Of a stretch of DNA of 32,000 nt, positions 2,996-30,844 are shown piece after piece; within the stretch, counting starts at the first letter, position 1, and each line of letters begins with the position of its first letter. This DNA comes from Trichlorobacter lovleyi SZ (GTDB lineage: Bacteria > Desulfobacterota > Desulfuromonadia > Geobacterales > Pseudopelobacteraceae): positions 1 through 32,000 of the forward strand of contig NC_010814.1 of the NCBI RefSeq assembly GCF_000020385.1, written 5' to 3'. Under the pieces are notes generated by a model. That model worked only from the letters and a program-made list of their open reading frames with translations, did no database searches and was not told the DNA's origin. Made by a program: the position numbers and the translations under genes.

Positions 2996-6507
<3,512 letters not shown>

Positions 6508-6511
6508 TCCA

Positions 6512-6516
6512 GCACG
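6512..6516. repeat. 5-bp target-site duplication GCACG (left copy) of the Tn7-like element
   Basis: GCACG immediately precedes the TGTAGG terminus at 6517. An identical GCACG follows the ...CCTACA terminus at 28250-28254. Confidence 0.8.
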
Positions 6517-6572
6517 TGTAGGTTTTCCCAATTAGTAATATTTTGGCCCCATAAAGTAAAAAAATCCTACAT
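6517..6572. repeat. tnsA-proximal (Tn7-R-like) end with putative transposase-binding repeats
   Basis: TGTAGGTTTTCCCAATTAGTAAT is followed by TTTTGGCCCCATAAAGTAAAAA and AAAAATCCTACA. All three have reverse-complement counterparts in the other end: ATTTATGGGGCCAC, TTGGGGCCAAAA and TAGGATTTT. Confidence 0.7.
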
Positions 6573-6590
6573 ACATTAGTTTATTTTAAT

Positions 6591-6620
6591 AAAAGCACCC
6601 AATCGGGTGCTTTTGTTTTT
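6591..6620 (+). terminator. Rho-independent-type hairpin just inside the transposon end
   Basis: aaaaGCACCC-aatc-GGGTGCttttgttttt: a 6-bp GC-rich stem followed by a T-run. It is positioned to stop gyrB read-through into the element. Confidence 0.5.
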
Positions 6621-6816
6621 GAAAGATTACAACTGAATCTTAGACAACTCAATAAGATGATACTCTAACACTACCCACCCGAAGTACTGCACAAATGGCG
6701 GAAAATAAGACAATGTTAATATAAGCATAGCTGATGTTTTATGTATATTAAATATACACCAAAAGTTGATATTTGTCAACTTACTGATATATTAATGTAA
6801 TATCAAGAAAACGAGG

Positions 6817-6844
6817 TTGACAGAACGTTATTTTAATCTAAAAT
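6817..6844 (+). promoter_or_regulatory. Sigma70-like promoter candidate for the tnsA-like gene
   Basis: TTGACA (6817-6822), a 16-nt spacer, then TAAAAT (6839-6844). AGGAGG RBS at 6857-6862 and ATG at 6869. Confidence 0.4.
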
Positions 6845-6868
6845 AAAACCAGAAGCAGGAGGGTCGCC

Positions 6869-7238
6869 ATGAATACAAATCCTGAATCTGGTGTTCTGCA
6901 GCACGGAAGGTCCAGAAAAGTAGTTAAGAGATCCAACTGTGGACACCCTGTAAAATTTGCAAGCCAAAAATGTGGCCGTTCTGTCCACCTTGAATCCCCC
7001 CTTGAATATGACCTAGCAATCCAGCTTGAATTTGATCCTTCAGTCATACTCTTTCAAGAACAACCCCTGGCCTTGAAAATTGAATATAACGGGAAAATTA
7101 GGACGGTATACCCGGATTTGGCAGTGTACAAAGATGACGGATCAACACTTATCATCGAAGTAAAGGATGCCAAAAAAGCAAGTCAGCAAGAGGTAATCGA
7201 AAAGTTCGAGCTTGAAAGGCAGGTATTGGTATCACTAG
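6869..7238 (+). pseudogene. tnsA: tnsA-like endonuclease, 5' part (interrupted by IS insertion at CTAG 7235-7238)
   Basis: The translation resembles the TnsA N-terminal catalytic domain: HLESPLEYDLAIQLEFDP, TVYPDLAVY, LIIEVKDAKK (E-x-K). The track ORF ends at 7249 only because of a stop inside the IS terminus. Confidence 0.65.
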
Positions 7239-8563
7239 CAGGTCGTTGAAAATCGGCTCGATTTGAGTCCGTTCCAGTCAGCCGGCTGATTTTTTAAGTT
7301 TGCTTCGCTGTTCAGATGTCGCTGTTTTCGGTTGTGTTGCTCTTTTTCAACTTTATTTGCCTATGCTTGATGCACCCCAAGGCCGATTTGCCGCTCTCAG
7401 GTGACACCGAGCCCCAGGTTTTTCATGCGTACCAGGTTGTAGGCCGCTGCATGGAGATCAAGCTGCCAGGCAATCTTCTCAATGCCTCGATACATGGTCT
7501 TTCTCAGTCTGCCGATGGTCTTCATCCAGCCAAAGCCTTCCTCGATCCGTTTTCTGATCCTTTGGCTTATGCTGTAATTCGGATGAGCGGTGGTTCTGCC
7601 ATCAATGCCTGATTTCCTTCTGGTGTTGTTCTGAGCCACATGCGGCGTGACGTTGATTTGCCTGAGCTCTTTGACAAAGCCTTCGGTGTCGTATCCTTTG
7701 TCTGCACCGACGGTGATACGCCGGGTAGTACGAGGCAATTGTCTGATCATGGCCTTGGCGGCTTCACGCTCTCCGGTACCGGTTGCCGTGGTGACGCTGG
7801 TCTTGACGATCAGACCGTTTCTATTCTCCATCAAGGTGTGTCCCTGGTAGCAGAGCTTGGCCTCTTTGGTGTTGCCCTTGCGGTACAGTCTGGCGTTTGG
7901 ATCAGTGCTGGAAGAATGAGTGTCGTTTTTGAGTTGTTTGCCTTTGAAATCAACTGATTTATTTTTGCCACCACCGGCAGATGGCGGACCGTCTTTGGGC
8001 TTGAAGCTCTTGATGGAGGCCCATGCCTCAATCAAGGTGCCGTCAACGGTGAAGTGCTCTCGGGACAGGAGACGCTTGCGCTCTGCCTGAGCAAGGATAC
8101 GGGATAGAAACTCTGCGGCCACATCAGAGCCAATTAACCGTTCATGGTTCTTAGTGAAGCTGGAGTGATCCCAGATTTCATCATCCAGTCCCATGCCAAG
8201 GAACCAGCGGTACAGGAAGTTGTAGCGGATCTGCTCTACCAGTTGCCGGTTACTGCGGATGCTGAACAGTATCATCAGCAGTTGTGCTTTCAGCAGCTTC
8301 TCCGGGGCAATGGAAGAACGACCGGAATCGGCATACATGCTGTCAAAGAGCGGGCTCATCTCGGAAAGTGCCTGATCAGCCATACTGCGAATAGCACGCA
8401 GGGGATGATCCTTGGGTACAAATGACTCAGGCGTCACATAGGCAAAAAGAGCTTCATTCTGGACATCAGTTCCGCGCATAACTTTCCTCAATCAAACCGG
8501 AGTGTTGTGCGCACAAATATACTAAAAAAAGGCTGTTTTTACTACTTCAATTTCAACAGCCTG
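7239..8563 (-). mobile_element. IS5-family insertion sequence
   Basis: Terminal inverted repeats are CAGGTCGTTGAAAATCGG (7239-) and, as the reverse complement of 8563-, CAGGCTGTTGAAATTGAAG. It encodes one DDE transposase. A CTAG lies on the left flank (7235-7238). The matching CTAG is found only beyond the neighbouring IS110-type element (10052-10055). Confidence 0.75.
7397..8491 (-). CDS. IS5-family DDE transposase
   Basis: 364 aa. The N-terminal InsH-like segment reads LFAYVTPESFVPKDHPLRAIR. The central part reads SFTKNHERL and HFTVDGTLIEAWAS. The DDE-type C-terminal part reads GADKGYDT...RIEEGFGWMK. Confidence 0.9.
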   Translation of the reverse strand: MRKVMRGTDVQNEALFAYVTPESFVPKDHPLRAIRSMADQALSEMSPLFDSMYADSGRSSIAPEKLLKAQLLMILFSIRSNRQLVEQIRYNFLYRWFLGMGLDDEIWDHSSFTKNHERLIGSDVAAEFLSRILAQAERKRLLSREHFTVDGTLIEAWASIKSFKPKDGPPSAGGGKNKSVDFKGKQLKNDTHSSSTDPNARLYRKGNTKEAKLCYQGHTLMENRNGLIVKTSVTTATGTGEREAAKAMIRQLPRTTRRITVGADKGYDTEGFVKELRQINVTPHVAQNNTRRKSGIDGRTTAHPNYSISQRIRKRIEEGFGWMKTIGRLRKTMYRGIEKIAWQLDLHAAAYNLVRMKNLGLGVT

Positions 8564-10051
8564 TTGATATGGCTGACAGTTTCAAGCCTAAAATATTCTG
8601 CCCCTTTTGATCTTTTAAATTTCTGTCCCAGAGGTACGGGGCCTTTTTCAACGACGGTAGATCACGCTGATATTCGCGGGTTGGTTACCGCATGTCTTGC
8701 CTACGTCGTGGAGCTGCCTCTCGCTAGAGCCGGGAGTTCGGCTTGATGCCTTATCCCATAACAGGCCCGAGGATTCTCCGGTACCTTGGCCGCAACCTCT
8801 GTGGACAGAAACTGAATCATGTTCTTTGAAATCTGGTTACGATGCGACTGGTACTGCTTGGGCTATAGCCCACATGAATGCGGACAGTTCTCTGGCAATG
8901 GCGGTAATGACTACCTGTGCCTGCTTGCCTTTGGTAACAAGTCGTTTGTAGCGGGCGCAAAGTCTGAGCTGTGCCTTCCAGGCAATCTCCCATACCGCTT
9001 GCGGCAGATTCTGTTGTCGGTCTCGAAGTCGCCTGCTAACCCGTGCCGGCAACCGATACGACCAGGCAGCTTCGACCAGCATTCGGCGTGCATGTCCATT
9101 GCCAGTCTTGGTTATACCGCCTCGCTGTGTTGACTCTCCACTTGAGTGTTCTGAAGGTACAAGCCCCAGATACGCCATCAGATGTCGGGGATTGTCAAAG
9201 CGACTCAAGTCACCAAGCTCAGCAACGGTGGTTGAGGCAACTACCAGAGAGACTCCCCGCAGAGCTTGGAGCGCTTCGACAACCGGACCAAGTCGCCATT
9301 CTGCAGCAAGCAGGCAAATCTGTTCCGTGATCCTATCAACGCGCTCTGTGTTCGATCTGACTGCATCCACATACTCCTGCAGGGTGATCTGCTGTGCGGA
9401 ATGCGTCATGTGTATGTCGGAGATCCAACGCCAATGGGCAAGACTCCAGAGTGTTTTGCCGCTATAGCGGAAGCCGCTGCGCAGCAGAAATGCATTCAAT
9501 TGCTGACGGGCCTTTCGCTCAGCATTCTTTGCATCGATACGGGCCCTGCAGAGGTCGCGCATTGCCTCATCTTCGATGCGCGGAACATAGACCGGAGTCA
9601 GTTCGCCTGCTCGGTGCAGACGGGCCAGCATCTCGGCATCACGCCGATCATTCTTTATTCGGCTGCCGCTCTTCTTGGGAATCAAAGAAGGGGCAACCAC
9701 GATACAATCAAAACCCTTACGGGTTAGGTGCCGATAGATGTCATAACCGCACGGGCCAGCTTCATAGACGAATCGAAGTTCGGTACCACGAGAAACCAGT
9801 TTTCTGAGAACTTTGTCCAATGCATCAAGACTGCCGTCAATAGTGCCGTAGTAACGGACTTCCTTGTCACGGCCTTCAGCGGCCAAAGCGACATCAATGG
9901 AGTTTTTGTGAACATCAAGCCCAACATACGTGATAGACTTTTCCATGACCTGCCTCCTTGGTTGTGGCTCTGTGCTGTGAATCTACTCGTTCCCAGCTTA
10001 ACCCACGTTTGCAAGAGGCAGGTCTACTTTTTCAACTGACAGCCATTATGG
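8564..10051 (-). mobile_element. IS110-family (IS1111-like) insertion sequence, inserted exactly at the terminus of the IS5-family element
   Basis: Subterminal inverted repeats are ATGGCTGACAGTT (8569-8581) and AACTGACAGCCAT (10033-10045). There are 273 bp of non-coding sequence 3' of the recombinase gene and 105 bp 5' of it. Boundaries are inferred from the IS5 terminus on one side and the CTAG duplicate on the other, accurate to about 3 bp. Confidence 0.7.
8837..9946 (-). CDS. IS110-family DEDD transposase/recombinase
   Basis: 369 aa. N-terminus YVGLDVHKNSIDVAL (RuvC-like DEDD domain). The C-terminal Transposase_20-type segment reads LRGVSLVVASTTVAELGDLSRFDNPRHLMAYLGLVPSEHSSGES..GGITKTGNGHARRMLVEAAW. 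Confidence 0.92.
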   Translation of the reverse strand: MEKSITYVGLDVHKNSIDVALAAEGRDKEVRYYGTIDGSLDALDKVLRKLVSRGTELRFVYEAGPCGYDIYRHLTRKGFDCIVVAPSLIPKKSGSRIKNDRRDAEMLARLHRAGELTPVYVPRIEDEAMRDLCRARIDAKNAERKARQQLNAFLLRSGFRYSGKTLWSLAHWRWISDIHMTHSAQQITLQEYVDAVRSNTERVDRITEQICLLAAEWRLGPVVEALQALRGVSLVVASTTVAELGDLSRFDNPRHLMAYLGLVPSEHSSGESTQRGGITKTGNGHARRMLVEAAWSYRLPARVSRRLRDRQQNLPQAVWEIAWKAQLRLCARYKRLVTKGKQAQVVITAIARELSAFMWAIAQAVPVAS

Positions 10052-10276
10052 CTAGGGTACGATTTTGTTGTCATGACAGACAAAGAAATACGAGGAACAA
10101 TTCAACATAAAAATTCGAGCAAGCTACTCCCCTACAGGCGACTCGTGATTGGCAGCATATTACGAGAAAAAGTCTTGGGAGCGCTCGCTTGGCGACCAAT
10201 GAGTTTGGGGGAAATGCTTCAAGAAGTACCCGGCGTCACTTTAGAATGCTATCGACTATTATCCTGGTGTTGCTGA
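10052..10276 (+). pseudogene. tnsA: tnsA-like endonuclease, 3' part (continues in frame from 7238 once both IS elements and one CTAG are removed)
   Basis: Joining ...gta tca cta g (7238) to gg tac gat ttt... (10056) gives ...ERQVLVSLGYDFVVMTDKEIRGTIQ..., a TnsA-like G.xF.VxTxxEI segment. The combined length is 591 nt, or 196 codons plus a stop. Confidence 0.65.
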
Positions 10277-10477
10277 GACCTTTGCAGCCTTACGTACCGG
10301 CCTGGTGATTTTGAAGCGATCGCTATTGCAGCAAGCGCTCCTAATTTCTCACCCTGTGGTGCTTGCCGTGAAGTTATCAACGAATTTGGGGATGATATGG
10401 TTGTTGTTTTTGAATTTAACGGACAGGTAGTCATCTCACCTTTGGCTGAAATTCTGCCCTACAACTTCAAGCTATAG
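10277..10477 (+). pseudogene. Cytidine deaminase (cdd-like) C-terminal relic
   Basis: The translation PGDFEAIAIAASAPNFSPCGACREVINEFGDDMVVVFEFNGQVVISPLAEILPYNF matches the C-terminal half of homotetrameric cytidine deaminases (PCGxCRQ motif). There is no start codon and no N-terminal half. The upstream CAE-like stretch (VAETFAALRTG) is in a different frame. Confidence 0.5.
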
Positions 10478-10611
10478 CCCTGTCTCTGCGGGCTACATGC
10501 AAATGGGGTTAATTACATGAAGCCCAATGACAATAATAACAGTGGCCCATTTCCCCAAAGCGTCTTTCCACCCAGCGTCTTTCCCCGAAGGATTTTCCCC
10601 TGGATGGGGGA

Positions 10612-10780
10612 CGACGAGACTACTGAAGACAAAGACGATGAAAACTCAAAGGTCTCTCAAGGCTCGTCGATCAGATCAGAATAAACCAAGTTGATTATAC
10701 GACATAAAGCCACTACCAAAACCTATCGCCAGCTCAACATACTGATCCTCCAGATCTGCTAAAAAGAAAGAATGCGGTTC
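10612..10780 (+). repeat. Direct repeat copy A (about 170 bp, with weaker similarity continuing to about 10825)
   Basis: It aligns by hand with 27871-28040 with about 19 differences. Copy A covers the 3' end of a 55-codon ORF (10517-10684, ...DETTEDKDDENSKVSQGSSIRSE) plus about 100 bp downstream. Confidence 0.8.
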
Positions 10781-10813
10781 AATTTGCTCGGCAGTTTATG
10801 ACCGAGTGCCTTT

Positions 10814-11815: not shown

Positions 11816-11830
11816 AAGTACTCCTCGCCC

Positions 11831-12718: not shown

Positions 12719-12767
12719 GGGTTCCTCCTGTATCACAGTCTGAATGGTTTCATCTTAGAAAAACAAA

Positions 12768-12787
12768 GCGACGGGTGCTGTCGTTTG
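12768..12787 (+). promoter_or_regulatory. Conserved element copy 1: GCGACGGGTGCTGTCGTTTG
   Basis: One of six co-oriented GCGACA-N5-TGTCGTTT sites. It lies 49 nt upstream of the Z2 start (12718). Confidence 0.6.
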
Positions 12788-12878
12788 AAAATCTGTTTTG
12801 CAGGCGTTCCTGAATAAAGACCGCATCAAGAACGCTGGCCAGGCCTCTAGATTCGCCAGGCATCAGGCAATACAAAGC

Positions 12879-20486: not shown

Positions 20487-20788
20487 TTTCTGTTTCTGCG
20501 CCCGGTCAAGCTCAGACCGGGCAGATTGGACAAAAAATCGTTTTCCGCCTTGAGCTTGCCGATGACGCGGTGCAGCTCGGCTACTTCGGCGTCGTGATTG
20601 ACCTCTTGCTTCTTCCCTTTGCCGAAGAGGTCTGAGGCGTTTTCAACGAGTTCCTGTTTCCAGTTGCTGATCTGGCTTGGGTGAACTTTGTACTCGCTGG
20701 CGAGCTCGGCCAGCGTCTTGGATTCGGTTAAAGCTGCCAAGGCTACCTTGGCCTTAAATTCTGAACTGTAACGGGTGCGGTGCTGCAT
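20483..20788 (-). CDS. IS3-family transposase OrfA (HTH)
   Basis: 101 aa. YSSEFKAKVALAAL..KTLAELASEYKVHPSQISNWK, followed by a leucine-zipper-like end. Confidence 0.9.
   Translation of the reverse strand: MQHRTRYSSEFKAKVALAALTESKTLAELASEYKVHPSQISNWKQELVENASDLFGKGKKQEVNHDAEVAELHRVIGKLKAENDFLSNLPGLSLTGRRNRK
20501..20537 (-). other. Programmed -1 ribosomal frameshift signal of the IS3 element
   Basis: In the minus sense, the slippery run T TTT TTG (20531-20537) is followed by the stem-loop CCCGGTC-tgagctt-GACCGGG (20501-20521). The -1 frame reads ...SARSELDRAQKQKVIATGHPD into OrfB. Confidence 0.7.
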
Positions 20789-21262: not shown

Positions 21263-21283
21263 GCGACAAGTTGTGTCGTTTTA
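21263..21283 (+). promoter_or_regulatory. Conserved element copy 3: GCGACAAGTTGTGTCGTTTTA
   Basis: It overlaps the MBL gene stop codon and lies 48 nt upstream of ATG 21214. Confidence 0.6.
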
Positions 21284-22549: not shown

Positions 22550-22580
22550 AAAACTGTGTCGTCCTTGATATCAGCTTGTC

Positions 22581-23522
22581 TCAGTTCAAGCTGTTCCTGA
22601 ACAGGGGGGATGCACCATATTCGCCTAAAACTTTATTTGCAGCGTTTTCGAGATCCGCAACTTTTTGAAGGTTTTCGACTCCCTGAACCAGAAACAAGGC
22701 TTTAAACTCGATATCAACATTCTCTTGCGGTGCCGCCACACCGGGTAACAGGCCTAACTCAATTTTTTCCCTTAGAATGTTACGAACAGATTCTTTAAAA
22801 GCTCTACGGGCATCTTTATCATTTCCCCCCGAGATAAACTGCTTTAAATCTTCAGCATGTTCTGCTACGCCTGCCTTGCCATCAACAGCTCCCAGGCCCT
22901 GTTTAAACTCAATCAGGTACACAGTAAGAGGTCCAGCGGCATGCAATTCGGTTCGTTCTAATGCGATCATATCAAAACGGCAGAGCCTGCGGCCAGCCGT
23001 CCGTTTGTCGCGACTTCTTTCGCCATGCAGCCAGACAGCATATTCAATATCCAGAATGATCCAGTGAGATGATGGATTCCGAGTGGATTCAGATGCAAGT
23101 TTATGTTGTAGTTCCCGTTCTGTTTTATTGTTGCCATCCTTAAACCAGTCATTCATCACATTTTTCAGCTTCGGGAAGCATTTAACCCAAGATGATGCGT
23201 CCCTAGGTATTTCTTTGAGCCAAGCAGCATCAACCTCCCATTCATCCTTACCTTTCCTCTTGTAGTAGTTTGGATCAAAGCTGAAGTTGATCTGTCTGCC
23301 GCGGAAGCTGCTGATTTTGAGCAGGCTTCCCCCCTTATAGTAGATATTCACATAGCCATCACGAATTTGGAGATCGAGATCGAGATCAGGATCATTTTTT
23401 ACAGCTTCAACAATCACACGTAGTTGTTCCTGGTGTTTTGGGGATACTCTGTCAAATTGAATTCCCCGGATTTTAGGCTTAACTGGCGGTTCTTTGCTCA
23501 AATTGGTCGTAGTGTCGTCCAT
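22581..23522 (-). CDS. Predicted PD-(D/E)XK-like nuclease-fold protein (family not recognised)
   Basis: 313 aa. The candidate catalytic pattern is ERELQHKL ... ILDIEY ... RFDMIAL ... VYLIEFKQG (E / D / ExK). The call rests on motifs only. Confidence 0.45.
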   Translation of the reverse strand: MDDTTTNLSKEPPVKPKIRGIQFDRVSPKHQEQLRVIVEAVKNDPDLDLDLQIRDGYVNIYYKGGSLLKISSFRGRQINFSFDPNYYKRKGKDEWEVDAAWLKEIPRDASSWVKCFPKLKNVMNDWFKDGNNKTERELQHKLASESTRNPSSHWIILDIEYAVWLHGERSRDKRTAGRRLCRFDMIALERTELHAAGPLTVYLIEFKQGLGAVDGKAGVAEHAEDLKQFISGGNDKDARRAFKESVRNILREKIELGLLPGVAAPQENVDIEFKALFLVQGVENLQKVADLENAANKVLGEYGASPLFRNSLN

Positions 23523-23531
23523 AAGATTCTC

Positions 23532-25043
23532 CTATAATTCACAATCAGCAAGATAACGGCTATTAGCCGCCGTGAACCTTTTAACTTCATCTTGGTCGCC
23601 GATCGCTTTCCACTCCTCTAAAATCCTATCCAAACTGTATGGTTCATGCGCCGCCAACAATTCCGCTCGCTTAAGGCATTTTTTTGCCGACTCGATGTCA
23701 TTAAAGTCTTCACGCCATATCTGGGCTAGCCATATCATTTCTCCGTCTGCCGCATCAGGTATAGCATCAGATCGGAGCAGGACGTTTCTTGCTCGTTCTC
23801 GTTCATTGAACTCTATCCAGCATTTTGCTAACTGGATAAGGTTAATAACCGCCCCCAAATTGGTATGTTCAACATGTTCTTCAGCAATTAACAGACACCT
23901 GCGAGCTTCGTCCTTGTCCTTAATTTTATCCTTCCAGAAATCCACGCAGGCACTCCAGGCGGTAAAGTCTTCCGCACGTTTTTCAGCTTCTCGTAGGCAT
24001 CGGATTGACTCCCTCCCGGATTTGTCGACAATCATCCAGTTCTCTGCACATGTAAGCCAATCCCACGCCCGCTCTGCCTGTTTCTCCGCTTCTCCTGGGT
24101 TAATCCTTAGCCATCCCTCTTCTGCAAGCTTGCGTAGTTGCCGACGCGGGTGGCCAAGTAGCACTTTTAGCTTCTTTGCATGATGGGGCTCAACCTTGTT
24201 GTGAAAAAACAGATCATCATTCAATGACGCATATCCTTTTTCGATCTGTACCTCTAATTGTGTGACTGTTTCAGTGAATGCATCGTCTTTGCTGAAGACG
24301 GTGTTCAGCCTCGACAACAGACGAGGAATCAGTTTTCGAGATTTCTTTGCCTCAAGGCACTCGTCAAAAAAATCAAGCATTGAATTAAGCATCTCTGAGT
24401 TGCTATTTTTATCGTCCATCTCGGCACAACAAGTATGGTTATGAGCTTCGGCCCGCTCTATTGCTTTTCTCATCGAGTCATCAAGCAGAAAAATATCTTG
24501 GCACGAAAGCTCTTCAATTGCCTTTACCTGCTCATCAGTAAATGTGCCGACTTTGGTATTGCCCTTGAGAGAAGAGGCTATTTCAATGACACTCCTTACA
24601 ACATACATTGGCCAAGAGGATGCAAGTACCTTATCTACCTTGTTTCCATATTCTTCCGTTATAATTACCGGAGCACATCCATTTTCATCAATAATTGTCG
24701 AGTCCAACGCCGTTGTGATTGGGGCGCCTGGGTAGCCGATATAGATCCTTTTCCAGCTGTCTTGCGGGTCATCACTAGAAACGGTACGACCATCGCATTC
24801 CATCAACTCAAATATTGAGACAATCTCCAGCGTCCCTTCGAGAAACTCGATAAGGCCTGAACCGTGTAGGGTCAACCAGTAGCGGTAGTCCGGAGGTACG
24901 ATCTTATTTTGTTTCTGCTCATACTGTGAAATCTGCTCCTCGGAAACAGGAACCAGCTTGGTATAGGTAATAAGTGGCCGAGCTTGTTCTAAAAACTCCC
25001 ACGCAATCTTGGTTTGCTTTATTACAACATCAGAATATTCCAT
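23532..25043 (-). CDS. SUKH (SMI1/KNR4)-like N-terminal domain fused to Trp-rich TPR/Sel1-like helical repeats
   Basis: 503 aa. IVPPDYRYWLTLHGSGLIEF matches the SUKH LPxDYxxFL..xNG signature. The C-terminal half has repeated A.xxxxxAxxW-type helical units (AERAWDWL, FTAWSACVDFW, LAKCWIEF, LAQIWRED, ILEEWKAI). Confidence 0.55.
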   Translation of the reverse strand: MEYSDVVIKQTKIAWEFLEQARPLITYTKLVPVSEEQISQYEQKQNKIVPPDYRYWLTLHGSGLIEFLEGTLEIVSIFELMECDGRTVSSDDPQDSWKRIYIGYPGAPITTALDSTIIDENGCAPVIITEEYGNKVDKVLASSWPMYVVRSVIEIASSLKGNTKVGTFTDEQVKAIEELSCQDIFLLDDSMRKAIERAEAHNHTCCAEMDDKNSNSEMLNSMLDFFDECLEAKKSRKLIPRLLSRLNTVFSKDDAFTETVTQLEVQIEKGYASLNDDLFFHNKVEPHHAKKLKVLLGHPRRQLRKLAEEGWLRINPGEAEKQAERAWDWLTCAENWMIVDKSGRESIRCLREAEKRAEDFTAWSACVDFWKDKIKDKDEARRCLLIAEEHVEHTNLGAVINLIQLAKCWIEFNERERARNVLLRSDAIPDAADGEMIWLAQIWREDFNDIESAKKCLKRAELLAAHEPYSLDRILEEWKAIGDQDEVKRFTAANSRYLADCEL

Positions 25044-25099
25044 TGCCCCGCCCCCTGGTTGTCATGTGATACGGAAATTTGCCCGGATTAGCGCGAAAT

Positions 25100-26098
25100 T
25101 TATCCAGGTCTATACATCTTGGCATAAGCATCTGCGAGCTCGACATACTCCTGTCGCAGAGAGGCCGGAGCCAGAACCTCCACCCTGCTACCAAAGCCAT
25201 TGAGCCACCAGCGTAGTTGCAGGGTATCTTCCACGGTTGCGGTAAGTTCGTGTCCATCAGCAGTTGCATGTATCTTCTGATTCGCTGCCAATGGAGACTC
25301 TTCAAGCCGCTGCATATCAACCTTGTGACTAAAACGAACTTTCAATCGAATACTACTGCCAACCGGAAACGTCAAAAGCTCTTGCACCCACGCATCCAGA
25401 TCAAAGTCCTCCGGCACGGTGACCGGTTTGTCCAGCAGGTCAATCGTCTGGAACCGGTGCAGCAGCAGCAGGATCGGTTCAACATGCTGGTTGATGGAGG
25501 CGATCAGGTAGGTCAAGCCATCAACAAAGGTCATGCCCAGAGGATTTACCTCTTCGTATGTTTTTGACTTGCCAGATACGGTTGTGTAGGTGGCTTTGAA
25601 GCGTTGTTCCTCCAACAGGGCGGTGTACGCCTTTTCAGTGATTTCCTCTGATATTGTTGGTGGAATGGTCGTCAGGCTGCGGGATAGGACCCTGACCTTA
25701 TTTGGCCAGGCAGCCAGCTTTGGATCAACAGCAGATTTTAAGCGTTGCTCTGCGGTTTTTTGATAGGGGATTAATGCTGAGAGTATGCCTTTCGGGAACA
25801 TCTTTTCCAGATACTGGCTGGCAAGGGTAAAGGTGAGGGCTGTAACCGGATCCATGTTGGGCATGTCAAAGTTTGCAGCATCATCAGTCCATTTCCAGCC
25901 CGATGGTTTTCTTCCGTCACTTGCAATCGGAAAGAGCGCTTCCAGTTCAATCAGATCCCGCTGGATAGTACGCAGGGTAGTTTCAATGCCGTCTTCATGT
26001 TTGAGTCGACTGCAGATCTCAACTGTCGAAATACCGGTTCCCCTCCTGGGGATCATGCGCAGGATTAGCCAGTGGCGATAGAGAGTACTCATGCTCAT
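25100..26098 (-). CDS. WYL-domain transcriptional regulator (wHTH-WYL-WCX architecture, BrxR/CapW-like class)
   Basis: N-terminal wHTH (LYRHWLILRMIP..GISTVEICSRL.....LRTIQRDLIELE), a central WYL-type beta domain (YEEVNPLGMTFVDGLTYLIA) and a C-terminal WCX-like LQLRWWLNGFGSRVEVLAPASLR. The more likely start is ATG 26092, based on GGAG spacing. Confidence 0.8.
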   Translation of the reverse strand: MSMSTLYRHWLILRMIPRRGTGISTVEICSRLKHEDGIETTLRTIQRDLIELEALFPIASDGRKPSGWKWTDDAANFDMPNMDPVTALTFTLASQYLEKMFPKGILSALIPYQKTAEQRLKSAVDPKLAAWPNKVRVLSRSLTTIPPTISEEITEKAYTALLEEQRFKATYTTVSGKSKTYEEVNPLGMTFVDGLTYLIASINQHVEPILLLLHRFQTIDLLDKPVTVPEDFDLDAWVQELLTFPVGSSIRLKVRFSHKVDMQRLEESPLAANQKIHATADGHELTATVEDTLQLRWWLNGFGSRVEVLAPASLRQEYVELADAYAKMYRPG

Positions 26099-26120
26099 TG
26101 CTCCATCATATGGGAGATAT

Positions 26121-26140
26121 GCGACAACTGCTGTCGTTTA
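26121..26140 (+). promoter_or_regulatory. Conserved element copy 4: GCGACAACTGCTGTCGTTTA
   Basis: It lies 22-28 nt upstream of the WYL gene start. In the minus sense it is directly preceded by TTGCCT-N16-TATGAT, a good -35/-10 pair. Confidence 0.65.
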
Positions 26141-26202
26141 TCATAGCAGTGTTTTGGCATGAGGCAATACATAGGAACCGAACTACCAACAGGGGACAAA
26201 GA

Positions 26203-26230
26203 GCTGGCACGCTCTTGCGAGCGTGCCAGC
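26203..26230 (-). terminator. Rho-independent terminator after the acidic-tail gene
   Basis: A perfect 12-bp stem, GCTGGCACGCTC-ttgc-GAGCGTGCCAGC. In the minus sense it is followed by TCTTTGT. It begins 8 nt after the stop at 26238. Confidence 0.75.
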
Positions 26231-26237
26231 AGGATTG

Positions 26238-26609
26238 TTAGAATGAATCATCATCTTCCTGGTGATCATCTCCAGAATCATCAAGCTCATCCTCATCAAT
26301 CTCCAGATCTTCGTCATCTTCAAAATCAGGCAGGTGCTGCTCAACCAGTCGTGCCGGTACGCTTCGGGCATGGGAGAGATCTTGTTGGCGTGCCACAAGC
26401 AAGAACGAGTCGCAGACAACCAGCAGCATCTCCATGTCACGCAGGTGGCTACCAATCTGATTGAGGTAGGAGGGAGTCAGTTTGGGTACTCCGGCAATAC
26501 TCCGTAACTCCGGCCAACCGAGCTGAAACTGCTCATAGCTGTCATTGGCAAAACTCTCGTCGTAAATTTCTGATAGTACCTGTGCTGTCTCTTGTGCGGT
26601 GCGTGCCAT
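26238..26609 (-). CDS. Small protein with an extremely acidic C-terminal tail ending DDDSF
   Basis: 123 aa with an AGGAGG RBS. The tail is PDFEDDEDLEIDEDELDDSGDDHQEDDDSF. The globular part was not recognised. Confidence 0.6.
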   Translation of the reverse strand: MARTAQETAQVLSEIYDESFANDSYEQFQLGWPELRSIAGVPKLTPSYLNQIGSHLRDMEMLLVVCDSFLLVARQQDLSHARSVPARLVEQHLPDFEDDEDLEIDEDELDDSGDDHQEDDDSF

Positions 26610-26652
26610 GATGGGCCTCCTGTATCGTTATGAGTCCATTCTAGTTGAAGGT

Positions 26653-26673
26653 GACGACAGATTGTGTCGTTTG
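26653..26673 (+). promoter_or_regulatory. Conserved element copy 5: GACGACAGATTGTGTCGTTTG
   Basis: It lies 43 nt upstream of the acidic-tail gene start (26609). Confidence 0.6.
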
Positions 26674-26715
26674 TCGACTTGCCTGGAGATCAACAGATAA
26701 TCAAGATCTTCATAT

Positions 26716-27672
26716 CTAGCAGAGGTTGCTAAAACAAAGCGTATCCGCGTGGAAATTGACAAATACAGTGCCGATAGGCCCATTTTTATGTTTTGCAACA
26801 ATAATTTCAGCCAGGTCTTCATGGTTGTGGACGCATGAACCATCACGACGCCTGCAGGCTTTGCAGTAGACCGACTCCCGGTAGATGAGCAATATGACAT
26901 CGGCATCGTCTTCAAGTGAGCCAGTGTTCCCCAAATCACTCAGTTTTGGCCGGGTCTTCTTTGCCTTTCGCCTGCCTACTGACGAATGCAGTTGGGAAAG
27001 CAGAATAACAGCTACACCAAGCTCTCTGGCTAACACCTTTAACGAACTTGAAATTCGGGATATTTCTGTGGGATCAAGAGCTGACCTGGCATCATCCCGC
27101 ATGAGCTGCAGATAGTCTATGATAATGACCTGTACGTTATGATCAACTTTCAGGCGTATGGCCTTGGCAAGGAGCTCCGTAATACTGATACCTGAAGTGT
27201 CGTCAACATAGATGGCGCTTTTCCGTAAGGTCTCTTTCGCATCATCAAGTTTGCACAGATCTGATTCCGATAAATGTCCGGTTCGTGCCCTGCAGATATC
27301 CACGTGGGCAACCGCTGATAGCAAACGTATGCCCAGTTGTTCCTTTGACAGTTCAAGCGAAAATATTGCTGTGGGAATGGTGTGCTTTAGCCCCACGTTC
27401 ATGGCAATGTTCATAGCTAACGAACTTTTGCCATTTGATGGGCGTGACGCTATGACAGTCAAGGTTCCCGGCTGCAATCCGCATAACATATGGTCAAGGT
27501 CTAGAAACCCCGTTGGATATCCGGTTATAGCTCCAGCATGTTCGTGGGACTGCTGAACCATTTTAAGTGATTCATCGATAAACTCATGCACTGCATAAAT
27601 TGGTTGACCGCTATAGCGGTACACAGGTTTGCATAATGAATTCTGTGCCGATTGATTTTCAAATGATTGCAT
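26716..27672 (-). CDS. DnaB-like helicase, C-terminal RecA-type ATPase domain only
   Basis: 318 aa. GYPTGFLDLDHMLCGLQPGTLTVIASRPSNGKSSLAMNIA (Walker A), VIIIDYLQLM (Walker B), ILLSQLHS...RPKLSDLGNTGSLEDDADVILLIYRE, IVAKHKNGPIG. There is no DnaB N-terminal domain. It carries an extra Cys/His stretch, CKACRRRDGSCVHNH. Confidence 0.8.
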   Translation of the reverse strand: MQSFENQSAQNSLCKPVYRYSGQPIYAVHEFIDESLKMVQQSHEHAGAITGYPTGFLDLDHMLCGLQPGTLTVIASRPSNGKSSLAMNIAMNVGLKHTIPTAIFSLELSKEQLGIRLLSAVAHVDICRARTGHLSESDLCKLDDAKETLRKSAIYVDDTSGISITELLAKAIRLKVDHNVQVIIIDYLQLMRDDARSALDPTEISRISSSLKVLARELGVAVILLSQLHSSVGRRKAKKTRPKLSDLGNTGSLEDDADVILLIYRESVYCKACRRRDGSCVHNHEDLAEIIVAKHKNGPIGTVFVNFHADTLCFSNLC

Positions 27673-27714: not shown

Positions 27715-27735
27715 GGCGTCAGTATGCGTCGTTTG
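27715..27735 (+). promoter_or_regulatory. Conserved element copy 6 (degenerate): GGCGTCAGTATGCGTCGTTTG
   Basis: It has the same spacing and TTTG extension and lies 42 nt upstream of the dnaB-like start. Both half-sites deviate (CGTCA / CGTCG). Confidence 0.4.
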
Positions 27736-27824
27736 TGTAAAGCAGTTGGCAATATGAGCGTATAATTGTTGTTGCGAGGCTTAGGCGTCTAAGAGATAGG
27801 AGGGCTGTGGTTCGTAGATAGGAA

Positions 27825-27846
27825 AATGTCAGTAATTGGGGCCAAT
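27825..27846. repeat. Outlying copy of the transposon-end repeat (AATGTCAGTAATTGGGGCCAAT)
   Basis: TAGGAAAATGTCAGTAATTGGGGCCAATCAGTGAG is nearly identical to 28110-28143 (TAGGAAAATGTCATTAATTGAGGCCAATAAGTAGG). Confidence 0.6.
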
Positions 27847-27870
27847 CAGTGAGTCTGAAACTATTGAGGG

Positions 27871-28040
27871 CGACGAGACTACTGAAGACAAAGACGATGA
27901 AGCCTCAAGGGTTTCTCCTGGCTCGACGATCAGATCAGAATAAGCCAAATTGATTATACGACATAAAGCCACCACCTAAAACCTATCGCCAGTTCGACAG
28001 ACTGGTCCTCCAGATCTCCTAAATGGAAAGAATGGGGTTC
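27871..28040 (+). repeat. Direct repeat copy B (partner of 10612-10780, with weaker similarity continuing to about 28085)
   Basis: See copy A. Copy B is embedded between transposon-end repeats. Confidence 0.8.
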
Positions 28041-28115
28041 TATTGCATGGCAATATATGCTATGTTACAAAGCTTTTTATCCGCAGAGACAATATTTCTA
28101 ATAACTCAGTAGGAA

Positions 28116-28249
28116 AATGTCATTAATTGAGGCCAATAAGTAGGATTTTGGCAGTAATTGGGGCCAAAAGTGTTAATTTATGGGGCCACGGCGAATATAA
28201 CTTATTGAAAATACAATTCCCCCAATGTCATTAATTGGGAACACCTACA
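28116..28249. repeat. Distal (Tn7-L-like) end with at least four putative transposase-binding repeats
   Basis: The repeats are AATGTCATTAATTGAGGCCAAT (28116-28137), TGGCAGTAATTGGGGCCAA (28149-28167), GTGTTAATTTATGGGGCCAC (28170-28189) and AATGTCATTAATTGGGAACACCTACA (28224-28249). Confidence 0.7.
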
Positions 28250-28254
28250 GCACG
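28250..28254. repeat. 5-bp target-site duplication GCACG (right copy)
   Basis: It immediately follows the ...CCTACA terminus and is identical to 6512-6516. Confidence 0.8.
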
Positions 28255-28297
28255 CTAACCACTTTATACAACACACCATTAAACGAGGGGACACCTC

Positions 28298-30844
28298 ATG
28301 CAGGAACAGGTAACGCAGAAGGTCGCAGTTAATATTGAAGATGAGATGAAGCGCTCCTACATGGATTATGCCATGTCAGTCATTGTCGGCCGGGCCCTGC
28401 CGGATGTACGGGATGGTCTCAAACCGGTGCACCGCCGCTGTCTGTATGCGATGAACGACATGGGCAATGACTATAACAAGCCCTACAAAAAATCGGCCAG
28501 GGTTGTCGGTGATGTCATCGGTAAGTACCACCCCCACGGTGATACTGCCGTGTATGACACCATTGTCCGGATGGCCCAGGATTTCTCGCTGCGCTATCTG
28601 CTGGTGGATGGCCAGGGTAACTTCGGTTCGGTGGACGGCGACAGCCCGGCAGCCATGCGGTATACCGAGATCCGGATGAAGCAGCTCACCCACGAGCTGC
28701 TGGCTGATCTGGAAAAGGAAACGGTTCCGTTTACCCCCAACTACGATGAGTCCCTCTATGAACCGGCCGTGCTGCCTGCCAAGTTTCCCAACCTGCTGGT
28801 CAACGGTTCATCAGGTATTGCGGTCGGCATGGCCACCAACATCCCGCCCCACAACCTGGGGGAGATCATTGATGCCATCATCGCACTGATCCATAACCCG
28901 GCTCTTAGCTATGAAGAGTTGCTGGAGCTGGTACCTGGACCGGATTTTCCCACCGGCGGCACCATCTATGGCCGCCAGGGGATTATTGACGGATATGCCA
29001 CCGGCCGCGGGGTAATCCAGATCCGGGCCAAGGCCCATGTTGAGAACAGCAAAAAGCATGATCGCGAGTCGATTGTGGTGACCGAGATCCCCTACCAGGT
29101 CAACAAGGCCCGCCTGATCACCAGTATTGCCGAGCTGGTCAAGGAAAAGAAGATCGAAGGGATCTCTGATCTGCGGGATGAGTCTGACCGTGATGGTATG
29201 CGGATTGTGATCGACCTGAAGAAGGATGAAAATGCCGAAGTGCTGCTGAACCAGCTCTATAAGCATACCCAGATGCAAACCTCCTTCGGTATCAATATGC
29301 TGGCGATTGTGCACAACCGTCCCAAGCTGATGTCACTGGCTGAGATGATGCACTATTTCATCGAGCACCGCCGTGAGATGGTTACCAAGCGGACCCTGTT
29401 TGAACTGAAAAAGGCCGAGGCCCGGGCCCATATCCTGGAAGGTCTCAAGATCGCGCTGGACTGGCTTGATGCCGTGATTGAGCTGATCCGTGAATCCAAA
29501 ACCCCGCCAGAGGCAAAACTGGGTCTGATGGAAGGCCGTTTTGCTGATCCTGACTATCTGCAGCGTCTGAACCTGCCCCGCCCTGCCGGGTATGAGAAGG
29601 CGGTACAGCTCTCGGAGATTCAGGCCCAGGCCATCCTGGAGATGCGTCTGCAGCGCCTGACCGGCCTGGAGCGGGACAAAATCATTGCAGAGTATGAGGA
29701 TATCCTGCGCTTGATCGCCCGCCTGAAGGAGATCCTGGGTTCTGATGCTGAGATCATGAAGATCATTGTGGGTGAGCTGACCGAGATCAAGGAGCGTTTT
29801 GGCGACAAGCGCCGCACCGAGATCGTTCATCAGACTGCCGACATTTCGCTGGAAGACACCATTGAAGATGCAGAAATGGTGGTAACGGTCTCCCATACCG
29901 GCTACATCAAGCGCAGTGCGGTTGACCTGTACCGGGCCCAGCGCCGTGGCGGCAAGGGCAAGACCGGGATGAAGACCCGTGAAGAGGATTTTGTGGAGCA
30001 GCTCTTCATCGCCTCCACCAAAGACTTCCTGCTGTTCTTCTCCGATATGGGCCGGGTCTACCGGATCAAGGTCTATGAGATCCCGGAAGGCAGCCGTACC
30101 ACCAAGGGTAAGGCGGTGGTGAACCTGGTCAATGTGCAGGAGGGAGAGAAGATCACCGCCATCCTGCCGGTGAAAGACCTGAACCGTGAAGACCTGTACC
30201 TGCTGATGGCAACCCGCAACGGCGTGGTCAAGAAGACCCCGCTGGTGGAATATCTGAACATCCGGACCACCGGTATCAATGCGGTCAACCTGGATGAAGG
30301 GGACAAGCTGATCTCAGTTGCCCTGACCGATGGTCAGAAGGATGTCTTCCTGGCTTCGCGCCACGGCAAGGCTATCCGCTTCCCTGAATCCGATGCCCGC
30401 CCGATGGGCAGGGTTACCCGCGGTGTGCGGGGGATGAACCTTGAGGCACGGGACGAAGTGATCGGTATGGAGGTGGTTGACCCGACAGCAACCGGTTCCA
30501 CCATCTTCACCCTGACCGAGAACGGCTTCGGCAAGCGGACCGACCTTGACGAGTATCGCGGCCAATCCCGTGGCGGCAAGGGTTTGATCACCATCAAGAC
30601 CACCACCCGTAACGGTCTGGTGGTGGGCGTGATGCAGGTGAATGATGAGAACCAGCTGATGGTCATCACTGACCAGGGCAAGATCCTGCGGGTACCGGTG
30701 GCCGGTTTCTCGGTGATTGGCCGTAACACCCAGGGGGTCAGGGTGATGGTGACTGAAGAACAGGAAAAGATCGTTGCCGTGGCCAAGCTGGCAGAGCGGG
30801 ATGATGAGGACGGCATTGAGCCGGAAGGTGAAGAAGAAGTTTGA
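28298..30844 (+). CDS. gyrA: DNA gyrase subunit A
   Basis: 848 aa. [23 protein letters not shown], the QRDR-type region [11 protein letters not shown], the catalytic Tyr context AAMRYTE, the GyrA box QRRGGKGK, a repeated beta-pinwheel CTD and an acidic tail. Confidence 0.97.

What the first reader, a model, noticed from the sequence alone, without database searches (positions are those of the whole stretch)
6505..28300. Tn7-like element inserted 9 bp after the gyrB stop codon, splitting gyrB-gyrA next to oriC and stripped of tnsB, tnsC and tniQ
Seen directly in the sequence: TGT...ACA termini with about 20-bp imperfect inverted repeats, several subterminal repeats in each end, an exact 5-bp duplication GCACG (6512-6516 and 28250-28254), and a tnsA-like gene reading inward from the gyrB-proximal end. 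Deleting 6517-28254 leaves a 52-bp gyrB-gyrA spacer. In canonical Tn7, TnsD recognises the 3' coding end of glmS and inserts just downstream, with the tnsA-proximal right end facing glmS. The geometry here is the same, which suggests the gyrB 3' end acts as an attachment site for a TnsD/TniQ-type targeting protein. No tnsB, tnsC or tniQ homologue is present anywhere in the 21.7 kb. A cytidine-deaminase relic starts immediately after the tnsA stop, so the element appears immobilised by internal deletion. Most cargo genes run opposite to gyrB and gyrA. If oriC is the dnaA-dnaN spacer, they are head-on to replication.
Basis: partly seen in the sequence, partly recalled or inferred. Interest (0 to 1): 0.7.

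Follow-up and report, generated by a model that had tools for sequence, protein, structure and literature searches.

The report
Decayed Tn7-like transposon at gyrB
A 21.7-kb Tn7-family transposon sits exactly 9 bp after the gyrB stop codon of a Trichlorobacter lovleyi-type genome. It has lost its own transposition genes and belongs to a family that targets the end of gyrB, an attachment site I could not find in the Tn7 papers I searched.

Summary
Contigs encoding an identical GyrA protein (flanks 99.0-99.8% identical in DNA) have an empty gyrB-gyrA junction: a 52-bp spacer with one GCACG. The window therefore holds a precise insertion (6517-28249) with a 5-bp duplication.

The ends are TGTAGGTkTTCCCAATTA inverted repeats with about 30-bp subterminal repeats. 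The gyrB-side gene is a TnsA endonuclease.

At least six other host backgrounds carry elements with these ends at this site. In the five with the same 18-base terminus the element starts 9 bp after the gyrB stop. In a more distant relative it starts 6 bp after. The duplicated bases differ between hosts, and homology breaks exactly at TGT/ACA.

Intact relatives at the site (L075, L073) encode TnsA, TnsB, TnsC and a 620-627-aa TniQ with an HTH domain.

In the window, tnsA is split by a 2.8-kb IS composite. A deletion then runs from tnsA codon about 192 into a cytidine-deaminase gene, removing tnsB, tnsC and tniQ. Sister T. lovleyi copies keep the tnsB 5' end, cut by IS256 or IS21.

Verdict: a real, defective member of a gyrB-targeting Tn7-like family. 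The closest described case is parE-targeting elements. It is solid, and moderately new as an attachment site, but the mechanism is ordinary.

The parts
4099..6507 (+). gyrB. Its last ~60 bp (about 6448-6507) are the inferred attachment sequence read by the family's TniQ.
   Evidence: ORF. Across 6 host backgrounds only codon positions 1 and 2 of [18 protein letters not shown][VI]* are conserved. TniQ binding is inferred, not shown.
6512..6516 (.). Target-site duplication GCACG, gyrB-side copy.
   Evidence: empty sites have a single GCACG.
6517..6573 (+). Right (tnsA-proximal) end. It holds the terminal site TGTAGGTTTTCCCAATTAGTAATA plus one adjoining ~30-bp repeat.
   Evidence: (I2). The same sequence abuts gyrB in L007, L015, L029, L047, L063-65 and L068-72.
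6588..6620 (+). Intrinsic-terminator hairpin with a T-tract just inside the right end, facing transcription coming from gyrB.
   Evidence: -18.3 kcal/mol, z -6.7. The position is conserved in L029 and L047. L015 has a different hairpin sequence at the same place.
6869..7238 (+). tnsA, 5' part (codons 1 to about 123).
   Evidence: Pfam PF08722, E 1e-9. 98% aa identity to the intact 234-aa T. lovleyi TnsA. That intact protein matches Tn7 TnsA 1F1Z at E 4e-5.
7239..10051 (-). IS composite inserted in tnsA. It holds an IS5-type transposase (7397-8491) and an IS110-type transposase (8837-9946), and is flanked by CTAG (7235-7238 and 10052-10055).
   Evidence: Pfam. The segment is absent from L002 and L063, whose sequence joins 7238 to 10052.
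10052..10276 (+). tnsA, 3' part. It is identical to T. lovleyi L063 up to 10245. The deletion junction lies at 10245/10246, so the reading frame ends early at 10276.
10295..10476 (+). Cytidine-deaminase relic (C-terminal third only).
   Evidence: 88% nt identity to the 3' part of the intact cdd gene of L002. That gene hits PF00383 at E 4e-19. The sequence is shown.
10517..10684 (+). Small acidic ORF (55 aa), conserved next to the left end in L002.
10604..10790 (+). Internal copy of the ~185-bp direct repeat (3' end of orf55 plus downstream sequence).
   Evidence: It is 87% identical to the copy at 27863-28050 and 84% identical to the single L002 copy.
10814..13751 (-). Cargo: an FtsZ-like gene and two paralogous genes with Tat-signal-like N-termini.
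13873..16379 (+). Cargo: a DUF2779/Cas4-like nuclease, a JAB-like gene and a GIY-YIG-like gene.
   Evidence: The DUF2779 gene is shared with L008 and L013.
16867..19290 (+). IS21-family element (istA, istB) with 29-bp perfect inverted repeats at 16906-16934 and 19233-19261.
   Evidence: The end of this IS is what cuts tnsB in L068.
19659..20788 (-). IS3-family orfA and orfB. The IS boundaries were not determined.
21281..27672 (-). Cargo: MBL/RMMBL hydrolase, a 313-aa unknown, a SUKH-domain protein, a WYL/WCX regulator, a 123-aa unknown and a DnaB_C-only ATPase.
   Evidence: The WYL-to-DnaB_C part is shared with L008, L011 and L013.
27819..27850 (-). Extra internal copy of the subterminal repeat.
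   Evidence: (D3).
27863..28050 (+). Left-end-proximal copy of the ~185-bp repeat (an orf55 3' fragment plus downstream sequence).
28106..28249 (-). Left end. Three adjoining subterminal repeats, a gap of about 30 bp, then the terminal site ...TAATTGGGAACACCTACA.
   Evidence: L002, from another species, differs at only 3 bases over the last ~210 bp, and homology stops exactly at ACA.
28250..28254 (.). Target-site duplication GCACG, gyrA-side copy.
28298..30844 (+). gyrA, which lies 52 bp from gyrB in empty-site strains.

Best explanation
Positions 6517-28249 are a defective descendant of a Tn7-family cut-and-paste transposon whose target selector recognises the 3' coding end of gyrB.

In intact family members, the proposed mechanism is as follows. 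All of it is inferred by analogy with TnsD and glmS.
- A 620-627-aa TniQ with a C-terminal HTH domain binds the conserved last ~15-20 codons of gyrB.
- TnsC bridges TniQ to the TnsA+TnsB transposase.
- The element is then inserted in one orientation, tnsA end towards gyrB. It lands 9 bp after the stop codon (6 bp in a distant relative) and makes a 5-bp duplication.

An insertion of this kind entered the T. lovleyi lineage once, since all T. lovleyi copies share the GCACG junction. In this genome the element then decayed:
- An IS5/IS110 composite split tnsA.
- A deletion from tnsA codon ~192 into the cytidine-deaminase gene removed tnsB, tnsC and tniQ.
- IS21 and IS3 elements landed in the cargo.

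Both ends are still intact, but the window encodes no transposase. The element is now a fixed, origin-proximal cargo island of about 17 kb, most of it transcribed against gyrB and gyrA.

A terminator just inside the gyrB-side end stops incoming gyrB transcription (inferred). gyrA must therefore be expressed from within or behind the element.
For: Shown directly:
- Precise insertion with a 5-bp duplication, judged against conspecific empty sites.
- TGT/ACA termini, 18 of 19 bases matching in the inverted repeats, and subterminal repeats found only in the two ends.
- A TnsA gene at the gyrB-side end.
- The same terminus 9 bp after the gyrB stop in five host backgrounds with different spacers and different duplicated bases.
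- L002, whose gyrA is only 75.6% identical in DNA, has a left end differing at 3 bases in ~210 bp, and homology breaks exactly at ACA. The element is therefore younger than the host split and moved as a unit defined by these ends.
- Intact tnsA-tnsB-tnsC-tniQ relatives sit at the same site: L075 next to gyrB and L073 next to gyrA. L066 has a homologous left end. Their TnsB matches Tn6677 TnsB at E 1e-70, TnsC hits Pfam TniB, and TniQ hits TniQ plus HTH_17.
- T. lovleyi sister copies continue from tnsA into tnsB at the point where the window has its deletion junction.
- The window holds no TnsB, TnsC or TniQ.
Against: - No experiment shows that TniQ binds gyrB, or that any family member transposes.
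- No complete T. lovleyi copy was seen. Every contig breaks at an IS inside tnsB, so the presence of tnsC and tniQ in the direct ancestor is inferred from 40-60%-identical relatives.
- L015, L029 and L047 show cargo (hsdR, or an AAA ATPase followed by a second ORF) directly after the right end. L066, L067, L073 and L074 have cargo or a divergent gene upstream of tnsA. The family layout therefore differs from Tn7, and I could read only ~2 kb of the first three.
- The two 185-bp repeat copies are 13% diverged, so the history is more complex than one deletion.
- The simple sigma-70 scan found no promoter facing gyrA.
Confidence: 0.85

Rival explanations
1. The 21.7 kb is a fusion of two related gyrB-targeting elements, not one element with one internal deletion. 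The two inserted in tandem at the same site. A later deletion removed the left end of the gyrB-proximal element together with the right end and tns genes of the distal one. The two diverged 185-bp left-end-proximal segments are what remains.
For: - The direct repeats at 10604-10790 and 27863-28050 are only 87% identical. Each is about as far from the single L002 copy (84-90%) as from the other, which suits two homologous elements better than a recent duplication.
- A stray subterminal repeat lies at 27819-27850.
- L002 has tnsA'-orf254-cdd-orf55-left end with no 17-kb cargo.
- In L066 other cargo lies upstream of tnsA with no right end in between.
Against: - No remnant of an internal right end or of left-end terminal sites is present between 10790 and 10814.
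- No second tnsA fragment was found.
- The alternative, in which the cargo was gained between two pre-existing repeats or lost from L002 by recombination between them, is not excluded.
Confidence: 0.35
2. The element did not transpose into this particular genome. It arrived, and is lost in empty-site strains, by homologous recombination through the highly conserved gyrB and gyrA flanks. Transposition happened only once, earlier in the lineage.
For: - All T. lovleyi-type copies (window, L008/11/13, L063-65, L068-72) share the identical junction and GCACG.
- The copies whose tns region is visible (window, L063-65, L068-72) all have a broken tns module. Occupied and empty sites nevertheless coexist among contigs encoding the same GyrA protein.
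- Cargo differs between strains within the same ends.
Against: This is compatible with the main explanation rather than opposed to it. It cannot explain the between-species copies, where the flanks are 72-76% identical and homology stops exactly at the termini with different duplications.
Confidence: 0.3
3. The element is non-autonomous but still mobile. Its intact ends are used in trans by the TnsABC+TniQ of a complete relative elsewhere in the cell or on an incoming replicon.
For: - Both ends are intact and the left end is nearly identical across species.
- tns-poor copies are frequent: L002 has only a tnsA fragment, and L015, L029 and L047 show cargo straight after the right end.
Against: - No second set of matching ends or tns genes is present in the window.
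- The 18-base terminus found only gyrB-adjacent copies among 185,579 species genomes and the metagenome set. The other hits lack further similarity and look like chance matches.
- Every T. lovleyi tnsB seen is broken.
- A size of 21.7 kb with four IS elements suggests long residence.
Confidence: 0.1
4. It is not a transposon. It is an ancestral variable region, or an integrase-type island, between gyrB and gyrA.
For: None beyond the lack of transposase genes in the window.
Against: - Empty sites with a single GCACG.
- TGT/ACA inverted repeats and a TnsA gene.
- No integrase gene.
- Intact tnsABCQ relatives at the same site.
Confidence: 0.02

Closest known systems
Tn7 (TnsABC+TnsD, attTn7 downstream of glmS)
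   Same: - Heteromeric TnsA+TnsB type, with TGT...ACA ends and asymmetric arrays of subterminal repeats.
- 5-bp duplication.
- Orientation-specific insertion just downstream of an essential gene. The conserved 3' coding end, not the insertion point, is the conserved sequence.
- The tnsA-proximal right end faces the target gene.
   Different: - The target gene is gyrB and the insertion lies 9 bp (or 6 bp) after the stop.
- TniQ is 620-627 aa with an HTH_17-type domain.
- No TnsE.
- Relatives often carry cargo or a divergent regulator between the right end and tnsA.
- The window copy lacks tnsB, tnsC and tniQ.
Tn7-like elements at the parE attachment site (Petassi et al. 2020, bioRxiv 10.1101/2020.07.02.184150; PMC11014353)
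   Same: - They insert downstream of the gene for the B subunit of a type II topoisomerase, which is the paralogue of gyrB.
- Targeting is attributed to a TniQ that reads the coding region.
- The TnsB of the present family is closest in PDB sequence to I-F3/Tn6677-type TnsB. Petassi et al. tie the parE-type TniQ to a small group of I-F3 elements.
   Different: - Here the gene is gyrB by synteny (dnaA-dnaN-recF-gyrB-gyrA) and by domains.
- The reported parE-type TniQ is about 486 aa against 620-627 aa here.
- Homology between the two TniQ groups was not tested, because no parE-type sequence was at hand.
Degraded Tn7-like remnants downstream of nrdB in Acinetobacter baumannii (PMC11014353)
   Same: An ancestral insertion at a conserved-gene attachment site that persists as a decayed island.
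   Different: In the window both ends are still sharply recognisable, and empty sites coexist in the species.
Type I-F3 CRISPR-associated transposons (Tn6677 and relatives)
   Same: Related TnsA and TnsB, and a TniQ N-terminal domain.
   Different: No cas genes were seen next to the tns genes in any relative or in the window. Targeting appears to be protein-guided.

Membership tests
Tn7-like transposons (Tn7 family) | A TnsA-type endonuclease gene at one end. | tested here: met
   PF08722, E 1e-9. The intact sister protein matches Tn7 TnsA 1F1Z at E 4e-5 and an I-F3 TnsA at E 1e-8. In the window the gene is split by IS elements and truncated.
Tn7-like transposons (Tn7 family) | A TnsB DDE transposase gene. 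| tested here: not met
   Absent from the window. Its 5' part is present in sister copies L063 and L068. It is full-length in relatives L066, L067 and L073-75, and L075 TnsB matches Tn6677 TnsB at E 1e-70. The window copy is therefore a defective derivative, not an autonomous member.
Tn7-like transposons (Tn7 family) | A TnsC/TniB AAA+ regulator gene. | tested here: not met
   Absent from the window. The only AAA+ hit is IstB of an IS21 element that has its own inverted repeats. TnsC is present in the relatives.
Tn7-like transposons (Tn7 family) | A TniQ/TnsD target selector gene. | tested here: not met
   Absent from the window. Relatives carry a 620-627-aa TniQ with PF06527 plus HTH_17.
Tn7-like transposons (Tn7 family) | TGT...ACA termini with several transposase-binding repeats arranged asymmetrically. 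| tested here: met
   The autonomous relative L066 has the same layout at its left end.
Tn7-like transposons (Tn7 family) | A 5-bp target-site duplication. | tested here: met
   GCACG is present once in the empty sites L009, L010 and L012 and twice in the window.
Tn7-like transposons (Tn7 family) | Site- and orientation-specific insertion beside a conserved gene. | tested here: met
   Five backgrounds at stop + 9 bp and one at stop + 6 bp, always with the tnsA end towards gyrB. L002 and L073 show the left end beside gyrA.
Tn7-like transposons (Tn7 family) | Transposition activity, and TniQ binding to the attachment DNA. | not testable with these tools
   Needs in vivo or in vitro assays.
parE-att Tn7-like elements | Insertion downstream of parE, directed by a ~486-aa TniQ. 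| tested here: not met
   The target is gyrB, and the family's TniQ is 620-627 aa. Sequence relatedness to the parE-type TniQ was not tested.
CRISPR-associated transposons (I-F3, I-B, V-K) | cas genes and a CRISPR array inside the element. | tested here: not met
   No Cas effector hits by Pfam or PADLOC; only a Cas4-like DUF2779 protein and a WYL regulator. The repeat scan reported no CRISPR-like repeat family.
Tn5053/Tn402 (TniABQR) family | No TnsA, a TniR resolvase with a res site, and targeting of res sites. | tested here: not met
   TnsA is present, no resolvase was found, and the target is gyrB.

The most novel reading that the evidence does not exclude
The family is a previously undescribed lineage of Tn7-like elements whose large HTH-bearing TniQ reads the near-universal C-terminal codons of gyrB.

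It inserts between two genes that are co-transcribed in the empty state, right beside the replication origin. It brings its own terminator for gyrB and replaces the transcriptional input to gyrA by read-through from the element.

Expression of an essential gyrase subunit would then depend on the element. That would help explain why decayed copies persist, and why the left end is almost invariant across species. The attachment site would also be a new, broadly conserved safe-harbour target.
Probability: 0.2. Interest if true: 0.65.

Novelty: new member of a known kind. Interest (0 to 1): 0.45.

Why it matters
The result adds gyrB to the list of conserved genes used as homing sites by Tn7-family transposons. 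[quoted passage not shown] I found no mention of gyrB or gyrase in the main texts of the four Tn7 papers I searched, or in the supplements of Faure 2023.

The data come with a clean natural experiment: empty, occupied, intact and decayed copies.

The site is unusual because it splits a tightly linked gyrB-gyrA pair next to the origin. This raises a testable question about how gyrA is expressed afterwards.

Practically, an intact relative (L075 or L073) might offer a protein-guided integration system aimed at a gene present in essentially all bacteria.

The window's own copy is a fossil that now serves as a cargo island.

Tried and rejected
- **Terminus scans.** I scanned for the 18-base terminus in 185,579 species genomes and in the JGI metagenome set. 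Only 3 of 49 hits were real (L015, L029, L047). The other hits showed no further similarity to the window or its subterminal repeats, so I treated them as chance matches. No copy of these ends turned up at a site other than gyrB, and no autonomous copy was found this way.
- **orf254 of L002 as a TniQ or TnsB remnant.** No similarity was found by tblastn or Pfam.
- **The IS21 istA/istB pair as disguised tnsB/tnsC.** Rejected. It has its own 29-bp perfect inverted repeats, and the same IS interrupts tnsB in L068.
- **Recovering the region between tnsB and the deaminase gene in T. lovleyi.**
  - The search with the tnsB 5' fragment returned only contigs that end in an IS.
  - The exact-match look-up of orf55 found nothing (two searches were coordinate errors).
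- **PADLOC on the cargo.** No known defence system was found; only Cas4-like and WYL hits.
- **Promoter and terminator scans.** The promoter scan facing gyrA found nothing. The simple terminator scanner missed the right-end hairpin, which folding then confirmed.
- **L006.** This contig carries a TnsA 62% identical to the window's, next to a cpYpsA gene. No recognisable end was seen by eye and the contig is too short to interpret.

Full report
**1. What is in the window**

The plus strand carries dnaA (213-1640), dnaN, recF, gyrB (4099-6507) and gyrA (28298-30844). Between gyrB and gyrA lie 21.7 kb with lower and patchy G+C.

gyrB ends in TAA at 6505-6507. Nine bases later (TCCAGCACG) the sequence TGTAGGTTTTCCCAATTAGTAATA begins. 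At the other side...TAATTGGGAACACCTACA ends at 28249 and is followed by GCACG.

Read inward, the two termini agree at 18 of the first 19 bases. A repeat of about 30 bp (TTGGCCyCAwwwA...TCCTAC) occurs once more at the gyrB side (6541-6573). It occurs three times close together at the gyrA side (28106-28172, plus a partial copy at about 28171-28193), and once further in (27819-27850). Its core motif has four hits in the 32 kb, all in the ends, against 0.32 expected.

**2. Proof of insertion**

A look-up of the window's exact GyrA protein returned contigs of what appears to be the same species.

Three of them (L009, L010, L012) are 99.0-99.8% identical to the window on both sides. They read ...GATGTCTAATCCAGCACGCTAACC..., with one GCACG and a 52-bp gyrB-gyrA spacer.

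Three others (L008, L011, L013) are occupied. They have the same left end and GCACG but partly different cargo.

**3. Host**

Positions 1-7238 are 99.25% identical to a Trichlorobacter lovleyi assembly (L063, GCA_021849865.1).

**4. The transposition module and how it was lost**

ORF 6869-7249 hits Tn7_TnsA-like_N but is only the front of the gene. Compared with L002 and L063, positions 7239-10051 are an insertion. It contains an IS5-type and an IS110-type transposase gene and is flanked by CTAG.

tnsA resumes at 10052 and is 100% identical to L063 up to 10245. There the window departs and runs, after about 50 bp, into the last third of a cytidine-deaminase gene (10295-10476).

In L063-65 and L068-72, the same gyrB junction and right end are followed by an intact 234-238-aa tnsA. 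An overlapping ORF follows whose first ~195 residues are 36-41% identical to the N-terminus of TnsB from autonomous relatives. This tnsB is cut by IS256 at nt 581 in one set of strains. In another set it is cut at about nt 631 by the same IS21 found in the window's cargo.

tblastn with the family's TnsB, TnsC and TniQ finds nothing in the window. Pfam finds only IS-encoded transposases.

So "stripped by internal deletion" is supported. The deletion starts at tnsA codon about 192.

**5. The family and its target**

A profile search with TnsA found relatives 43-57% identical to the reference TnsA (P0002). Their contigs encode tnsA-tnsB-tnsC-tniQ, with TniQ of 620-627 aa carrying TniQ and HTH_17 domains. 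One exception, L074, has a 317-aa TniQ.

Two of these relatives sit at the same site:
- L075 has the last 314 codons of a gyrB (72% aa identity), the stop, 6 bp, and then TGTAGGTTTGCCCAATTA...
- L073 has tniQ, a left end (TGTAGGATGTCCCATTTAG when read inward), and about 60 bp later gyrA.

L066 has a left end with the same site layout as the window.

Scanning public genomes and metagenomes for the 18-base terminus gave three further true hits (L015, L029, L047). Each lies directly after gyrB. L007 adds another.

In the five backgrounds with this terminus the element starts exactly 9 bp after the stop. Meanwhile the stop codon, the spacer and the five duplicated bases all differ (GCACG, GCAGT, GTACG, AAATA, TGTGT). 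Upstream, only codon positions 1 and 2 of [18 protein letters not shown][VI] are conserved.

L002, from a species whose gyrA is 75.6% identical in DNA, has a left end differing at 3 of ~210 bases. Homology stops exactly at ACA, next to a different flank (GTAAT).

These facts mean repeated, independent, orientation-specific insertions measured from the gyrB coding end. This is the behaviour established for TnsD at glmS.

**6. Family membership**

- TnsA matches Tn7 TnsA (1F1Z, E 4e-5) and I-F3 TnsA (E 1e-8).
- L075 TnsB matches Tn6677 TnsB (E 1e-70) and, more distantly, Tn7 TnsB.
- The TniQ N-terminus matches TniQ chains.

The ends, the duplication and the targeting all fit the Tn7 family. The window copy fails the tnsB, tnsC and tniQ criteria and is a defective derivative.

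**7. Complications**

A direct repeat of about 185 bp (10604-10790 and 27863-28050, 87% identical) brackets the 17 kb of cargo. L002 has one copy and no such cargo. The three copies are about equally diverged.

I therefore think a fusion of two related tandem elements is a serious alternative to a single-element history (0.35).

In several relatives, cargo (hsdR, or an AAA ATPase followed by a second ORF) or a divergent gene lies between the right end and tnsA. This differs from Tn7.

**8. Function now**

A strong hairpin with a T-tract (6588-6620; -18.3 kcal/mol, z -6.7) lies about 70 bp inside the right end. Its position is kept in L029 and L047. In L015 a different hairpin sequence stands at the same place, which argues for a conserved terminator role.

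In the empty state gyrB and gyrA are 52 bp apart and are probably co-transcribed. After insertion, gyrA must be driven from inside the element. No sigma-70-type promoter was detected. In intact relatives the tns operon points towards gyrA, so read-through is a plausible source (inference).

By my sum of the ORF lengths, about 12 kb of the element's coding sequence is on the minus strand and about 5 kb on the plus strand. The minus-strand genes would be head-on to a fork leaving the dnaA region. GC skew and the DnaA-box-like clusters are consistent with this, but oriC itself was not mapped.

**9. Literature**

Reviews and surveys list glmS, ffs, parE, guaC, rsmJ, tRNA genes, comM and nrdB as attachment sites (PMC11014353, PMC11406308, bioRxiv 10.1101/2020.07.02.184150).

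I found no mention of gyrB or gyrase in Faure et al. 2023 (main text and 16 supplements). There was also none in the main text of Benler et al. 2021, in the 2024 Annual Review, or in the 2024 Acinetobacter paper. No paper pairs "Tn7-like" with "downstream of gyrB".

The nearest described case is the parE site. parE is the paralogue of gyrB.

The library is incomplete, so "undescribed" is provisional.

**10. Verdict**

This is a real but defunct member of a gyrB-homing Tn7-like family. It is new as an attachment site and conventional in its machinery.

Noticed in passing
window 13800-13825, 21260-21281, 26114-26139, 26651-26672: Four copies of a palindrome CGACA-N4-6-TGTCG lie in intergenic spots of the cargo. 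One is just upstream of the WYL/WCX regulator gene (25100-26098, minus strand). They look like an operator set for that regulator.
   Followed up: no
window 10814-13751 (minus strand): A second, element-borne FtsZ-like gene (Tubulin + FtsZ_C). On the minus strand it follows two paralogous 290-301-aa genes. Their products have a Tat-signal-like N-terminus (MDRRTFLTTMLQG), and one shows weak FtsZ_C similarity. No PADLOC hit. Function unknown.
   Followed up: partly
window 26716-27672 (minus strand); L008 8419-9375: A 318-aa protein consisting only of the DnaB C-terminal ATPase domain sits next to the left end. Together with the 123-aa and WYL genes, it is conserved in other T. lovleyi copies whose remaining cargo differs.
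   Followed up: partly
window 7239-10051; L001-L005; L007; L063-65; L068-72: The transposition genes have been hit independently at least five times. tnsA was hit by IS5/IS110, by IS3 and by IS21. tnsB was hit by IS256 and by IS21. Every copy of this subfamily in which the tns region could be read is disabled.
   Followed up: partly
window 6588-6620; L015 5856-5905; L029 1625-1665; L047 1943-1983: A terminator hairpin inside the right end is conserved in position. In L015 it is replaced by an unrelated stem. No promoter-like site facing gyrA was found at 27850-28320, so how gyrA is transcribed in occupied strains is open.
   Followed up: partly
L015 from 5786, L029 up to 1740, L047 up to 2058, L066 1-10000, L067 5115-6008, L073 748-1704, L074 1255-2199: In relatives, cargo or a divergently transcribed gene lies between the right end and tnsA. 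Examples are type I restriction HsdR, an AAA ATPase followed by a second ORF, an OLD-family ATPase plus UvrD helicase pair, a putative AbiC, a toxin-antitoxin pair, Fic and BrxR. This is unlike Tn7, where cargo follows the tns genes.
   Followed up: partly
window 10604-10790 and 27863-28050; extra repeat 27819-27850: Diverged (87% identical) direct repeats of about 185 bp of the left-end-proximal region bracket 17 kb of cargo. A stray subterminal repeat lies just before the second copy. This may be a scar of two fused tandem elements.
   Followed up: partly
L002 863-1630 and 1560-2045; window 10295-10684: The small relative in L002 carries a 254-aa ORF without Pfam hits, an intact cytidine deaminase and a 55-aa acidic ORF before the left end. 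The window keeps only the deaminase tail and the 55-aa ORF. This conserved trio near the left end has no obvious role in transposition.
   Followed up: partly
L001 1-6300: In one metagenome contig the IS3 that truncates tnsA is joined to polysaccharide-synthesis genes instead of gyrB. This is either an IS-mediated rearrangement or a chimeric assembly.
   Followed up: no
window 121-140 and 1671-1707: DnaA-box-like 9-mers (one mismatch each) cluster upstream of dnaA and in the dnaA-dnaN spacer. This is consistent with an origin next to this locus. The window-wide count is not above chance.
   Followed up: partly
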